Origin: Rhynchobatus australiae
Lineage: Eukaryota
DNA length: 64,000 nucleotides
Assembly: GCA_034780895.1 (NCBI GenBank)
Contig: JAUZTB010000062.1
Coordinates: 19,147,607-19,211,606 of the forward strand
Direction of reading: 5' to 3'
Position 1 is the first letter of the stretch; each line of letters opens with the position of its first letter. A program made the position numbers and the translations under genes. Below are positions 8,204-61,843 of the stretch, one piece after another. Under the pieces are notes generated by a model, which was not told the DNA's origin, searched no databases, and saw nothing but the letters and a program-made list of their open reading frames with translations.

Positions 8204-9087
8204 TGTTATGAACCAGCAACAAAAGAAACACACTAAGTTATGGTTCAGTGTTTAAAAACTACTTTATTAATAACTACTTATGATAATAAGAAAAATAAAA
8301 GTAAAACTGTTAAAGCCTAAACATTAACCCCAACTAACTAACTAAACTAGTCGTGTGTGTGTGGCAAATTCCTAAACTCCACATCCAGGAATGGTTCTCA
8401 AAGTTCAGTTCAGTTCAGCAAGCCATAAGGTGAAACACAAGTAAAGGCTTCTTCAACAACCACTGTTGACTGAAGACAAAACGTAGATGTAGAGAAAATA
8501 GAGTAATTACGAAATCCAAATGTTCCATGATGGAACCCAAATGACTCCTCAGTGTTTACTCAGCAGTGACGACTCCACCGCATCTTCCTCACCCCGAAAG
8601 GCTCTTGAATGATCCACTATGAAACCCAAATGACACCTCAGCGTCTACTCAGTAGTGACTTCCTCACCCCAAAAAATATCTGAAACGTGGCTGTCCACAC
8701 AAAATACCTGTTTCCTTCTACAGGGCAACAACAAAGTGAACTCCACTTCTTTGTTCTGACGTGTCTGCCACACCTTAGAGCATCCGTGACGTGGCCGTCC
8801 ACACAAAACCTGTCTTCCTCTACAGGTTAACGACAAAGTGGACTCCACCGGATTACTCCCAAAAATCCGTCCATGGAAAGTAGTGCCAGTCACAGTTATT
8901 GTTTCTCATCCATTGATAGAGAAAACAAGTAGGCTAGTGTCCCTCGCCGTCGCTGTCCCCCTCCCCCCTCCCGGCTTTCCAACAACGTCATGATGTCCTG
9001 TATCTTCTGTGACGTAAGCACACCACACACACACACACACACACTATCTTAAAGGGACATTCACTAATAGTAACCTGGTCCGTAACA
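8204..9087 (-). mobile_element. Solo LTR, probably Gypsy-type (copy 1, 884 bp)
   Basis: TG...CA termini with a 13-bp imperfect inverted repeat (TGTTATGAACCAG / CTGGTCCGTAACA). Minus-strand AATAAA at 8263-8268, internal (CA)n, homologous to 10093-10874. No PBS or internal ORFs. Confidence 0.8.
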
Positions 9088-10092: not shown

Positions 10093-10129
10093 GTCATGAT
10101 GTTCTTTATCTTCTGTTGACGTAAGCACG

Positions 10130-10170
<41 letters not shown>

Positions 10171-10206
10171 AAAAGGGATACTCACTAATAGTCCTAGTCC
10201 GTAACA
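10093..10206 (-). mobile_element. LTR copy 2, terminal part only (rest in N gap)
   Basis: Homologous to ~8986-9087 and ends CCGTAACA. Confidence 0.8.
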
Positions 10207-10767
10207 GAAGTAAAAATGTTAAACCTTAAGCATTAACCCCCAAAAAACTAACTAAACTCGTCATGTGTGTGTGTCAGATTCCCAAACTCCACGTCCAGGA
10301 ATAGTTCTCAAAGTTCAGTTCAGTTCAGCAAGCCATAAGGTGAAATATGAGTAAAGGCTTCTTCAACAACCACCATTGACTGAAGAAAAAACGTCGATGT
10401 AGAGACAAAATAGAAAGTAATTACGAAATCCAAATGTTCCACAATGGAACCCAAACGACTCCTCAGTGTTTACTCAGTAGTGACGACTTTGTTCCAAAGT
10501 GTCTGCCACACCCAAGACCATCCATGATATGGCCATCCACACAAAATACCTGTCTTCCTCAACAGGTTAATGACAAAGTGGAGTCCACTGGATTACTCCC
10601 AAAATTTCCGTCCGTGGATTGTAGTGACAGTCACAGTTATTGTTTCTCCTCCATTGATAGAGAAAAAAAGCAGGCGGGTGTCACTCTCTCTCTTTTCTTC
10701 AGACTGGCTCTGACTGACTGTTCCAACAACATCATGATGTCCTTTATCTTCTGTTGACGTAGGCATG

Positions 10768-10817
<50 letters not shown>

Positions 10818-10874
10818 AGACACACTCTCACTATCTTAAAAGGACATTCACTAATAGTAACCTATTCCGTAACA
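10207..10874 (-). mobile_element. LTR copy 3, lacking the first ~95 bp
   Basis: Collinear with ~8299-9087 apart from an internal deletion; ends TTCCGTAACA. Confidence 0.85.
10769..10825. repeat. (CA)n microsatellite inside LTR (also ~9019-9043 and ~10131-10166)
   Basis: Directly visible; length differs among the three LTR copies. Confidence 0.95.
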
Positions 10875-11625: not shown

Positions 11626-11967
11626 GATTTTGGAACATTTTACCTTTAAAGGCACTATATATAAATGCACACTGTTGTTAAATCATCTTAGTTCCAATGA
11701 AGTTGATGGACCTGATGCTGTCTTTGCTTTGTTGCCCTGACATGGAGAACAGTGTGTTTATAGTCCTCAATTTAAATCTTGGTTTTGAATTACAAATTTA
11801 AAAAATGCTGTGATACAGCTTGCATCTTGAGTGGATAAGCTACCTAGAAGGCAAGATAACAGTGAGATGCAGTTTGTGCATCATGTGTGTTTTCAATGAA
11901 CAAAAATATCAGTAGAATTCTTTGAAGATTTTCAAGTGGCAGTATGTTAATGATACTCAGCAAGGCC

Positions 11968-12081
11968 AATCATTAATCAGTGAATACAGATTAATTAGCT
12001 ATCTGTTCTACAGGTAAAGGGTAATTATCACATTTTATTCAACACTGAGTAATGCAATCAGTATTCAAAAGAACATTCAAC
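11968..12081 (+). repeat. Direct repeat; second diverged copy at 12659-12767
   Basis: AATCATTAA-CAGTGAATACAGATTAATTAGC...TTATCACATTTT...CAATCAGTATTCAAAAGAACATTCAAC is present in both. Confidence 0.95.
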
Positions 12082-12606
12082 TGTTAAGCAACAGCATATG
12101 TCTCTTCACAAATGTGTATGCTCAAAATATTGTTACCTATGACTAATCATCTTGTGAAGGAATATAAATTAATTAATTAGTGTAAGCGGCTGTAAATTGA
12201 GTAGGACTGTTTTCTTTCACTTCCCACACAGAAGCCATTTTTATCTTGTATTGAGTCAGGATGTCTTAAATGCAGCCTATCAGCAAGAAATCTTTACAAC
12301 CATGTTATGGCATGAAGATGATTCCTATCACATCCCATTTTTCAGGTTGAACATGAACATATAGGAGATTTTGCATTAAGTATTAACTTCAAAGGGATAT
12401 TTGATTTTTTTTTGCTCTTGCCTAATTTACATGGATTTTGACTTTGCCAGCACTGCCTGTAGTTTTTGTAGGTAAATAGCGCTAGAGTGAGTCTAATTAG
12501 GGAAACACAACTTCCTGAAGGTTAACTCCTCAGCAATTCTGTATCATTGTTTTATTGTTTAACCTCTTACACCATAATCATTTCCTCTTGCTTTTTATGC
12601 ACTTCT

Positions 12607-12858
12607 TCTGAAATAAAACTGAAAATGCTGGAAATAGTCAGGCAGCATCTGTGGGGAGAATCATTAAGCAGTGAATACAGATTAATTAGCAATCTGTTAC
12701 CTAAAGCATAGTTATCACATTTTGTTCAATACAAGTAATTCAATCAGTATTCAAAAGAACATTCAACAATTCTGATGAAGGGTTATTGATCTGAAACATT
12801 TTTCTTCACAGGTGCTGCCTGATTTGCTGAGTATTTTCTGCATGTTGTTTAATTTATA
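12607..12858. mobile_element. Penelope-like element remnant: inverted arms enclosing duplicated local DNA
   Basis: Left arm AAAATGCTGGAAATA..TCAGGCAGCATCTGTGG is the reverse complement of right arm CACAGGTGCTGCCTGA..TATTTTCTGCATGTT. The same tail follows the GIY-YIG remnant at 39040. Confidence 0.75.
12767..12800 (+). ncRNA. Degenerate minimal type I hammerhead ribozyme core (Penelope-associated)
   Basis: CTGATGA (12772-12778), imperfect stem II, GAAAC (12793-12797); stems I/III eroded. Confidence 0.55.
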
Positions 12859-13544
12859 ATAGATTATAACTTTGGTCACCCAGTGTAAACAAGGCAAATT
12901 CAGAAATGACTCACATGCCTGGTAATACTGATTTCATGATTGCTGCTGCCTTCTTCAGAGAGCTCATTAACTGGTTAATAGAGGGTTTCCCATTTCAAGC
13001 CAGATATTCCATGCAAATTGAGGCTGGCAGGGTCTTATGACTTGTATGATACTCAATTTGCAGTTTAAGAGCAAAAGATAGCAGAAGATCGAAATTTGAA
13101 ATTTTGCAATGTCGAAGGTTCGACAAGGTATTAAAATAATTATCCTTAAAAATAGTTATGAATGGCCATGAGATGGAATGTGGAAGCTGCTCCTCTGGGT
13201 TGCACAGTGTGGAGTTGCTGCTGTCTTGAGCGTCTTCCCATCGGTGTTCACTGTTCCTTACTTTCCCCCGTCATCTAGCTCTGCCACCTGGGTCAACCAA
13301 TATTGGACCTGCCTGGAATTTGTGAAAGGGATTGGGAAATGTGGTCGGCATAAGGGGATCTTTCAGAATGCACAGAATAGTCACATGCCAACTAGAAAGA
13401 AAAATACCAGGGGGAGGACCCAGCATTTGCTACAGAAAAAGAGATAGGTGGCAGGTGAGAAGATTGGACAGAATATATAAAGAAAGGAGAGTGACTAAAA
13501 AGATGAGGGAAAAAAGTGATGTACAGAATAAAAGGTAACCATAA

Positions 13545-48654: not shown

Positions 48655-49960
48655 TGCATCCTTGAAGAAGTTCATTTACTTTCTTCAAGACTACTGGTGC
48701 ACATGTCTGCAAATACACTAGTTCCAGAGATCAACCATTGACTCAAGATAACCCCCAAAAAGCACCATGACCCCTGCTGGCTTGGAGTAGAACAGATTTA
48801 ATTATGTGTATATTATAACAATGAATTATATATATTGCTAATGTTCCACCCCTCCCTCAAATTCAACATATTTAACTTTTTTTCCAATATGCTGGAGATT
48901 TATTTTCTCTGGTAGAGTGTCTGACCTCCACTTGAGGCAGTACAGGCTTATTTTGCTGTTGTCAGTTTGATTTACACTGTACTCACAGGTAGAGTGTCCA
49001 GGTGATTCATTATCAGCACACCCTGAATCCATTATCAGCAGTTGTCTCTGGCACTGGAAAACAACTGATAGTTCTTCCTAGTACATTCATATGTTTTCAA
49101 GGTCAAGGTCCATCTTTGAACTCATGGAGAAACCATTTGAGGCAATGGGTTTCAAGGATCATGGAAATCAGATATTTTGACCTGTGTAAAAAGTGAAGTG
49201 ATATCCATAAACATATGTATCGAACTACTGCACTTCAAACATGACAGTAATGTCTCCTTTACCCTGCCAAGCGTACACTTTCCCTGTTGCATTCAGTATT
49301 CTGGAAGTAAACTTTATTGGCTTTTTAGAACCAAATTCATTGGTTGAATTCATCCTTTAGGAAGTTTATTGTCTTCAAGCCTGCTGAGTGCACATGTCTG
49401 CTGACACAGCCCTTGCAGAGATCAACCAAAAATGGCACCTGCCTAAATTCAACAGTGACACAAGGTCAGCTCTGAAATCTCTCGGACCCTGTGTTAACAT
49501 GGAGGTGAACATCTAATAACAACTTTATACATTCTATTTTATATAGAACTACATAAACTATACTGTACATTGCTACGATACATTTTAGGATTTAGAGCCA
49601 GCGATAATGAAGAAATGGCAATATACTGTATTTCCAAGTCACTATGTGAATGACTGATAATGGATTGAGATTTGACGGGTTGATTGGTGTGAAGTCAGTC
49701 AGTGCTTAAATCGAGTTCATCTTGTTCATTCATTATTGTTAACAATGCTGCAATCACATTGTATTGAGTTCTCATTAACAGCTTACTAAATCCCATTGNN
49801 NNNNNNNNNNNNNNNNNNNNNNNNNNNNNNNNNNNNNNNNNNNNNNNNNNNNNNNNNNNNNNNNNNNNNNNNNNNNNNNNNNNNNNNNNNNNNNNNNNAC
49901 AAGACAAACCCTGAAAAGCACCATGATCCCTGCTGGTTTGGAGGTAAACAACCATAACCT
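48655..49960 (+). repeat. Old local duplication; copy B split by ~470 bp
   Basis: ~48664-48740 matches ~49360-49430 (CTTCAAG..GTGCACATGTCTGC..AGAGATCAACCA); ~48745-48795 matches ~49900-49950 (AAAAGCACCATGA-CCCTGCTGG-TTGGAG). Confidence 0.85.
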
Positions 49961-60393: not shown

Positions 60394-60465
60394 AAAGCAC
60401 AAATCACAATTATAAGACACCCTCTGGGCCACTTCACAGAAAGTCACTAGACCTTTTCAGGGAGC
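60394..60465 (+). repeat. 72-bp exact direct repeat; second copy 61145-61216
   Basis: AAAGCACAAATCACAATTATAAGACACC...CCTTTTCAGGGAGC is identical; the first copy abuts a 6-N gap. Confidence 0.95.
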
Positions 60466-60930: not shown

Positions 60931-61843
60931 AGTCAGCTCTGAATAGTGTGGAGGCTTGGAAAGGGGCTGTTTCACTGCTGAATTTCAGTGAGCTATTGCT
61001 GAATAGTTTCAACTGCAGGCAGATGTTTCAACATGCCTGCTTCTTCACCATCCTCTATTTCCCTAGCGTCACCTGCCTTACCTTGCTGAAGGCCCTTGTC
61101 CTTGTCAACGATGAGGGTTTCATTTTAGAGCAAAGTCACGCAGCAAAGCACAAATCACAATTATAAGACACCCTCTGGGCCACTTCACAGAAAGTCACTA
61201 GACCTTTTCAGGGAGCAGAGTCATTGCTTAAGGCCTTGGTTTCTCTGCTTCCTATGCGCTTTGGGTGACCCTGGATTTGATTTTAGGACACTTTGACTGT
61301 GAAATACATAGGTTACAGGGAGGAATGAATTAGGATCCAAGAGCAGCAGGAGCCAGCTTCTGTTTAGAACAACCAGCCTCTTGTTTGCTGTGCAGGGACA
61401 AAATGTGGATGTGTTGGCAGGGGCAAGTGGGGGAGGGATGGTTGAGGGAAGATTGATGCTGTATCAAAGTATCATGACAACTGCTCAGAAAATGGGCACA
61501 GCACAGTTCATCACACTCTAGTTTCACATTAATAGGATGGAAGCTTTTGAGATTCATGAAAGAAATCTGGAAGTCAGAATATTCAAAGCATCTTGCTGGA
61601 TGGTACTGAGGAGACTCCCAGTAACCTGCAGTTGCCTGAACTAGCATCTAATCCTGCTGCTTCCAGTTGTCAAGGGGAAAGTGATGGAAACATCTGTCAA
61701 TGTGCTTACTGCAAACATGAACTGCAGAATCATGGCCCTTAGTCACATTTCCTTTTACGCCCTGGAGGGAAAGACTGCAATGCTCTTGTCTGAAACAGAC
61801 AATGCAATAGAAGTTCTAGAAGTAAACTTCAGGTCTCAGTTTC

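What the first reader, a model, noticed from the sequence alone, without database searches (positions are those of the whole stretch)
11968..12858. Penelope-like inverted arms enclosing a copy of nearby host DNA
Seen: a ~110-bp unique segment (11968-12081) recurs, diverged, 690 bp downstream (12659-12767). The second copy sits exactly between two inverted arms, and the right arm starts with a hammerhead core (CTGATGA..GAAAC). Established: Penelope-like elements (PLEs) form inverted pseudo-LTRs and carry minimal hammerheads. Inference: the RT jumped from the element onto nearby host DNA or RNA and back, producing a foldback element that duplicated local non-coding sequence. The captured piece has homeobox-like TTAATTAG/TCATTAA motifs. 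The source is preceded by ATACTCAGCA, which also occurs in the PLE arm (TGCTGAGTAT on the other strand) and could be a microhomology.
Basis: partly seen in the sequence, partly recalled or inferred. Interest (0 to 1): 0.7.

Follow-up and report, generated by a model that had tools for sequence, protein, structure and literature searches.

The report
Nearby DNA patched into Penelope junction
A 109-base copy of a conserved non-coding stretch lying about 580 bases away sits exactly between two back-to-back ends of a Penelope-like jumping gene, and the same pattern recurs at about one in six such junctions that hold unique DNA, likely because the cell's break-repair machinery copied nearby DNA while closing the insertion.

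Summary
12659-12767 is a same-strand copy of 11968-12081 (98 matches, 11 mismatches). It lies exactly at the inversion point of two head-to-head tails of a Penelope-like element (PLE), and four related organisms share it. The donor is part of a conserved non-coding element; the copy drifts.

Of 80 other two-armed junctions with unique filler, 14 have a donor within 5 kb (controls 3 of 1580). Donors lie mostly 0.4-1.1 kb away, in both orientations, and are about as diverged as the arms. All 16 captures sit at the inversion point (14 by script, 2 by eye).

But similar short local copies, at the same distances, occur away from these junctions, about one per 40 kb. That is the known repair-mediated duplication (Pace 2009). 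So host break repair at the open junction is more likely than a reverse-transcriptase jump. One junction holds U6 snRNA in two inverted halves, which points to RT jumps also happening here. The proposed 10-base microhomology is out of register and not enriched.

Verdict: a new variant of a known scar, informative about how PLE insertions are closed.

The parts
11908..12340 (.). Conserved non-coding element that contains the donor (edges approximate); has a distant paralog at G000:C127
   Evidence: 3 differences in 127 nt (11904-12030) in organism I; 33 differences in 11908-12404 in organism L, against about 82% identity in neutral flanks; paralog aligns over 11968-12289, 223 of 349 columns
11953..11962 (+). 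ATACTCAGCA, a 10-mer shared with the PLE tail; out of register with the junction, probably chance
11968..12081 (+). Donor of the captured segment (114 nt)
   Evidence: conserved in relatives while the copy drifts
12607..12659 (-). Left arm: 5'-truncated PLE 3' tail pointing outward; 8-nt internal deletion; lacks the hammerhead
   Evidence: 2 mismatches in 53 aligned nt to the majority line of 29 genomic copies
12659..12767 (+). Captured copy (109 nt), same orientation as the donor; 1-2 nt overlap with each arm
   Evidence: present in organisms D, E, I, J
12766..12865 (+). Right arm: PLE 3' tail starting just 5' of the hammerhead core; 9-nt internal deletion
   Evidence: 253 genomic candidates, a lower bound; 19 mismatches in 104 nt to the majority line
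12772..12799 (+). Decayed minimal hammerhead motif (CTGATGA, weak helix II, GAAAC-AT)
   Evidence: sequence; no Rfam hit; fold not recovered; motif class as in PMC4209133

Best explanation
A 109-base copy of nearby conserved DNA lies at the inversion point of two head-to-head Penelope-like tails, and it was likely made by host break-repair synthesis while the two ends of the new insertion were being joined. Steps: (1) the PLE endonuclease cut both strands, and each 3' end primed a short cDNA from the RNA's 3' end, giving two outward-pointing 5'-truncated tails (structure shown; mechanism inferred from the literature); (2) before the inner ends were joined, one 3' end annealed through 1-2 bases to DNA about 550 bp away and was extended by about 110 nt by an SDSA- or Pol-theta-type process (inferred); (3) the end released and joined the other arm (inferred). 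The copy has since drifted while the donor stayed constrained (shown). It is a repair-mediated duplication whose acceptor site is the open PLE junction.
For: Recurrence: own-flank alignment score >=40 in 15 of 79 fillers against 3 of 1580 foreign-flank controls. After dropping L234 (assembly-gap overlap) and adding three two-armed sites first left out, 15 of 81, or 14 of 80 without this locus. Position: all 16 captures (these 15 plus L136) have an antisense arm before the filler. Sense scored above antisense after it in 14 of 16 by script (margins small for L145, L136 and L176), and L171 and L172 were read by eye. None resumes the same arm. Age: filler-donor divergence 240/1232 vs arm-arm 171/971, paired p=0.35 (includes L234, lacks L176). 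Distance: 10 of 12 donors in 10-kb loci lie within 1.1 kb (p 6e-6), and 0 of 10 unmatched fillers have a donor at 5-10 kb. Host-repair signature: 12 direct and 4 inverted, copies 51-131 nt, one two-donor chimera (L171). 22 background local copies away from the sampled junctions show the same distances (p=0.70). All this matches Pace et al. 2009 (PMC2671141: donor <5 kb, mean 162 bp, chimeras). The PLE protein cuts and extends both strands in vitro (PMC11167929).
Against: Nothing here identifies the polymerase. L282 holds U6 snRNA in two inverted halves between the arms, which points to RT jumps at this junction type. About four in five unique fillers have no donor within the flank searched (1.5 or 5 kb). 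Paired divergences are not correlated across loci (Spearman 0.06), so the age match is only coarse. No empty site was found, so target-site loss and exact junctions are unknown. Of the 100 ten-kb loci, 80 were picked by eye from their first 80 nt (blind to flanks), so rates are not genome-wide rates. The background set was hand-filtered (22 of 98 rows).
Confidence: 0.55

Rival explanations
1. The PLE reverse transcriptase itself jumped from the element RNA onto nearby host DNA (or a local transcript), copied about 110 nt and was then joined to the second arm.
For: L282: left arm, then U6 antisense from its exact 3' U-run, then U6 1-58 sense, then right arm (Rfam E 6e-10 and 6e-9). This is the pattern expected of template switching plus twin priming on an RNA. 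Captures sit at the inversion point and are about as old as the arms. L1 insertions with locally templated genomic DNA are reported, with the ORF2p versus host share left open (PMC11702581).
Against: The same distance spectrum occurs without arms. U6 capture is rare: 1 of 5 hits of a genome-wide pattern, the other 4 being chance, and no Rfam hit in 70 further loci chosen for unique-looking centres. A nascent-RNA template would not be expected to confine donors to about 1 kb on both sides (inference). The proposed microhomology is unsupported.
Confidence: 0.25
2. The element first inserted as a near-perfect palindrome. Its centre broke soon afterwards (hairpin or cruciform cleavage), and the break was patched with nearby DNA.
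For: It would also put captures at the inversion point. The region still folds back. A break soon after insertion would look as old as the arms.
Against: No centre capture is clearly young (identities 74-90%), while 6 of 22 background copies are >=89% (difference not significant, p=0.38). The filler is already present in the more distant organisms I and J. The arms are short (50-100 nt).
Confidence: 0.17
3. Two independent PLE tails landed by chance on either side of an older local duplicate or low-copy repeat.
For: PLE tails are very abundant, and background local duplicates occur about once per 40 kb.
Against: The match ends exactly at both arms and does not continue outside them. It recurs in 14 of 80 other junctions against 3 of 1580 controls. 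The only other genomic relative is a distant paralog.
Confidence: 0.03

Closest known systems
Repair-mediated duplications (Pace, Sen, Batzer, Feschotte 2009, PMC2671141; read parts 1-4 of 8 of the text), and the 'doublets' of Thomas et al. 2004 (seen only as described in Pace)
   Same: A unique 50-200-nt segment copied from within 5 kb; short or no microhomology; occasional two-donor chimeras; donors sometimes conserved non-coding DNA.
   Different: Their acceptors interrupt an already inserted TE. Here the acceptor is the inversion junction of a PLE insertion and is about as old as the element. Distances peak near 0.5-0.9 kb rather than about 1.2 kb (a peak they call possibly artefactual).
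Inverted 5'-truncated PLE copies and pseudo-LTRs (Craig et al. 2021, PMC8557442, passages read; Frangieh et al. 2024, PMC11167929, parts 1-2 of 4 read)
   Same: Head-to-head truncated copies, hammerhead in the terminal repeat, GIY-YIG gene upstream in longer copies, both strands cut and extended.
   Different: The passages read do not mention host DNA or snRNA at the inversion point; they leave completion of the insertion to 'host repair', not yet validated.
L1 insertions with locally templated genomic DNA (PMC11702581; section 7 and passages read; supplementary Figs S9-S10 not seen)
   Same: A retroelement junction carries sequence copied from near the integration site; the RT versus host contribution is unresolved.
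   Different: Different element class, cultured human cells, three cases; distances not seen by me.
U6/LINE-1 chimeras (PMC13174262, passages read)
   Same: U6 captured at a retroelement's 5' junction, as in L282.
   Different: There U6 is full-length and sense. In L282 it is split into two inverted halves, one on each PLE arm.
Minimal hammerheads of metazoan PLEs (Cervera and de la Pena 2014, PMC4209133, passages read)
   Same: CUGAUGA, bulged base, helix II, GAAAC core in the terminal repeat.
   Different: This copy is decayed (weak helix II, broken 15.2-16.2 pair) and plays no shown role in the capture.

Membership tests
Repair-mediated duplication (Pace 2009) | Insert >=50 bp with a single donor elsewhere in the genome | tested here: met
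   109 nt; one donor plus one distant 76% paralog
Repair-mediated duplication (Pace 2009) | Donor more than 50 bp and less than 5 kb away (not tandem) | tested here: met
   577 bp between donor end and copy start
Repair-mediated duplication (Pace 2009) | No polyA/T tail on the insert | tested here: met
   sequence
Repair-mediated duplication (Pace 2009) | Microhomology, deletion or filler at breakpoints, judged against an empty site | tested here: inconclusive
   1-2 nt overlap at each end, chance level; no empty site found
Repair-mediated duplication (Pace 2009) | Made by host SDSA-type synthesis | not testable with these tools
   only indirect: same distance spectrum as background copies
Penelope-like element, Neptune/Nematis type | Terminal repeat with minimal hammerhead | tested here: met
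   core at 12772-12797, decayed; descriptor from PMC4209133; no Rfam hit
Penelope-like element, Neptune/Nematis type | GIY-YIG endonuclease gene directly upstream of the same tail | tested here: inconclusive
   In 5 of 29 loci with a GIY-YIG-like remnant (L335, L339, L340, L345, L349) a homologous tail follows 230-400 nt downstream on the same strand. These are a sister subfamily, recognised by a recalled motif. Pfam gave no hit on 13 decayed frames.
Penelope-like element, Neptune/Nematis type | CX2-5CxxC motif upstream of GIY-YIG | tested here: met
   CX4CxxC seen in L345 and L326; definition from PMC8557442; sister subfamily only
Penelope-like element, Neptune/Nematis type | Inverted 5'-truncated copy forming inverted repeats | tested here: met
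   this locus and 2,606 exact-anchor pairs
Penelope-like element, Neptune/Nematis type | Telomerase-like RT placed in the PLE phylogeny | not tested
   no intact ORF was recovered and no tree was built
RT template-switch chimera (U6/L1 type) | Captured piece derives from a cellular RNA, starting at its 3' end | tested here: inconclusive
   Not shown for this locus: the donor is non-coding DNA with no Rfam hit, and its transcription is unknown. Met for L282.

The most novel reading that the evidence does not exclude
The inner junction of head-to-head PLE insertions is a capture point worked by the PLE's own telomerase-like RT. It jumps onto cellular RNA (U6, twin-primed from both arms) and onto looped-back chromosomal DNA at a characteristic 0.5-0.8 kb. 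In doing so it systematically plants copies of neighbouring DNA, including conserved regulatory sequence, inside the new element.
Probability: 0.2. Interest if true: 0.7.

Novelty: new variant of a known kind. Interest (0 to 1): 0.45.

Why it matters
How a PLE insertion is finished after first-strand synthesis is unresolved; Frangieh 2024 leaves it to unvalidated host repair. Captures that sit at the inversion point and are as old as the arms imply that the two cDNA ends stay open long enough to copy other templates. The absence of donors within 400 bp and the peak near 0.5-0.9 kb give a physical ruler (DNA looping or resection length) that can be tested. The U6 case extends snRNA capture to PLEs. 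For this one locus the biological consequence looks small: the copy of the conserved element is drifting.

Tried and rejected
Microhomology model: rejected. TSD: best shared word between the flanks is 5 nt, not at the edges.

Copy co-opted as an enhancer: no support. In organism J the listed differences are 3 in the donor against 8 substitutions and 7 indels in the copy (tables are truncated).

Empty site: not found in 8 runs of 8 coded organisms. Organisms H, L and M show little or no cover of the copy, which proves nothing. No RNA holder was listed.

Pfam on GIY-YIG frames: no hits. Strict protein-motif scan: nothing. Rfam on 70 loci chosen for unique-looking centres: no hits. More U6 captures: none beyond L282. 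Donors at 5-10 kb: 0 of 10.

Rows dropped before counting: L234 (N-gap overlap); L039 (97% match across an N gap, element-like); L167 (donor is a repeat); L108 (match includes element, score 34); L274, L280 and L283 (no clear right arm; L274 scored 46); L106 and L210 (pattern not centred); 34 duplicate sites. Weak candidates L164, L189, L180, L190 and L162 (scores 34-38) were not counted as positives.

A naked-DNA looping curve (formula recalled) predicts 12/38/50% for <450, 450-1100 and >1100 bp; the data are more peaked.

Thomas 2004 could not be read. The nearest gene was not identified.

Full report
Observation. The window is G000:C62:19147607-19211606 in a 2.23-Gb genome. Earlier AI notes call it a ray or skate; I did not check that. 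12659-12767 aligns to 11968-12081 on the same strand with 98 matches, 11 mismatches and 5 gap columns. The match stops at both ends of the spacer, and no self-match extends outside the arms. A genome search with the donor found these two places and one 76%/84-nt hit on contig C127, which aligns over 11968-12289 and looks like an old paralog. The spacer is flanked by 12607-12659 and 12766-12865, inverted copies of an abundant repeat (253 candidates). The right arm starts with a decayed minimal hammerhead core.

What the arms are. Read with the hammerhead as sense, both arms are 5'-truncated 3' tails pointing outward. This is the inverted truncated structure described for PLEs (PMC8557442, passages). 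In 5 of 29 loci found with a GIY-YIG-like remnant, a homologous hammerhead tail follows on the same strand 230-400 nt downstream. Two loci show the CX4CxxC motif of the Neptune/Nematis clades. These are a sister subfamily, the GIY-YIG motif was recalled, and Pfam gave no hit on 13 decayed frames. PLE identity is therefore well supported but not formally closed. Head-to-head pairs are the ordinary form: 2,606 with exact 11+11-nt anchors. Most centres are element sequence only.

Relatives. Contigs of coded organisms D and E and of the more distant I and J run from the left arm through the copy into the right arm; G shows the copy/right-arm junction. The structure is therefore real and old. The donor lies in a conserved block (3 differences in 127 nt in organism I, against about 82% identity in neutral flanks). 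The copy carries many substitutions and indels in I and J. This fixes the direction of copying and argues against constraint on the copy. No empty site was found.

From eight pattern searches and five fetches I held 255 distinct sites, 85 with a unique run of 25 nt or more. Of the 100 ten-kb loci, 80 were chosen by eye from the first 80 listed bases, blind to flanks; 20 were wider versions of fillers already seen. Of 79 fillers, 15 scored >=40 against their own flanks, against 3 of 1580 foreign-flank controls. L234 is an overlap at an N gap and was dropped. Three two-armed sites first left out were scored later, one positive. That gives 15 of 81, or 14 of 80 without this locus. L136 is a further capture that fell under the final uniqueness filter. 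Copies are 51-131 nt; 12 are direct and 4 inverted. L171 has two donors, and L055 was later split by a nested insertion. As a share of all pairs this is small: at least 13 of 385 listed long-centre rows, a class that is 6 of the 50 pairs listed, so roughly 0.4% (hand estimate, lower bound).

Position, age and distance. All 16 captures lie at the inversion point. By script, antisense scored higher before the filler in 16 of 16 and sense higher after it in 14 of 16; L171 and L172 were read by eye. Plain pairs have 62-106 nt between the anchors (10 pairs), so random breaks would mostly fall inside an arm. If a third counted as junction, 16 of 16 has p about 2e-8 (hand calculation). Filler-donor divergence (240/1232) is similar to arm-arm divergence (171/971; paired p=0.35, but no correlation across loci). 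Ten of 12 donors in 10-kb loci lie within 1.1 kb (p 6e-6). None of the 13 donors within 1.1 kb is closer than 400 bp to the anchor (p 0.013 vs uniform). None of 10 unmatched fillers has a donor at 5-10 kb. After discounting intervening repeats and N, 11 of 16 distances fall at 460-760 bp (those repeats need not be younger than the capture).

The control that changes the reading. Self-alignment of 106 ten-kb stretches (0.90 Mb without N) gave 98 non-repeat rows. After removing by hand the focal captures, tandem arrays and near-100% copies at N gaps, 22 dispersed local copies remain. Many are not next to any PLE arm (output partly cut). Their distances match those of the junction captures (median 712 vs 815 bp, p=0.70). 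This is the repair-mediated duplication of Pace et al. 2009 (PMC2671141, parts 1-4 of 8 read): donors within 5 kb, mean 162 bp, some chimeric, attributed to SDSA. The simplest reading is that a general host process acted on the open PLE junction.

Evidence for RT jumps. At L282 (C77:4796941) the centre is U6 snRNA in two inverted pieces. The first is antisense from the exact 3' end on the left arm; the second is positions 1-58 leading into the right arm (Rfam). This is what template switching with twin priming would give, and it parallels U6/L1 chimeras (PMC13174262, passages). It is a single case: 1 of 5 hits of a genome-wide pattern, and no Rfam hit in 70 other loci. L1 insertions with locally templated DNA are reported with the polymerase left open (PMC11702581, section 7 and passages; its supplementary figures, not seen, may give distances). 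The RT model therefore stays alive at about 0.25.

Microhomology. ATACTCAGCA ends 5 nt before the donor but about 22 nt before the junction in the tail's majority line, and the present left arm has lost most of it. Tail 10-mers lie beside 2 of 32 donor ends, against 2.9% of random windows. True junction overlaps are 1-2 nt.

Novelty. Searches showed, by listing, no paper on local-DNA or U6 capture at PLE inversion junctions. The library lacks most subscription papers, including PLE work on host-gene retrotransposition that I know only as cited. The single locus is an ordinary, drifting scar. The junction-specific recurrence, the distance ruler and the U6 case are the new and testable parts. 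Verdict: new variant of a known kind, interest 0.45.

Noticed in passing
L282 (G000:C77:4796941-4797125): U6 snRNA captured in two inverted halves between head-to-head PLE arms, starting at its exact 3' end: a likely PLE-U6 twin-priming chimera.
   Followed up: yes
106 ten-kb stretches of G000: About 22 dispersed local copies of 45-240 nt in 0.9 Mb, far denser than the 0.08-0.65 per Mb of TE DNA in Pace 2009. The methods differ, so this is a lead only.
   Followed up: partly
window 60394-60465 and 61145-61216: 72-bp exact duplicate followed by a short N run and a retroelement-like tail. Probably an assembly-gap artefact like L234 and L039, or a very recent templated insertion.
   Followed up: partly
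window 48657-48787 vs 49351-49428 and 49900-49943: An old local copy (77-86% identity) made of two adjacent pieces that match sites 614 and 1113 bp away; no PLE arms beside it.
   Followed up: partly
window 8299-9087 and 10093-10874: Two or more LTR-like repeat copies (82-90% identity) with CA runs; observed only.
   Followed up: no
window 12108-12183; L003 (G000:C127:30070903): The conserved element has a distant paralog in this genome, and a second matching contig in organisms G, H, I and J. It may be a duplicated conserved element or an ancient low-copy repeat.
   Followed up: partly
L177:8339-8563: A 225-nt local copy (donor 1.6 kb away) inserted inside a single-orientation PLE fragment that resumes afterwards, unlike the junction captures.
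   Followed up: partly
L208, L242, L235 centres: Fillers that by eye look like internal PLE coding sequence placed between the arms, suggesting jumps within the element's own RNA; not tested.
   Followed up: no
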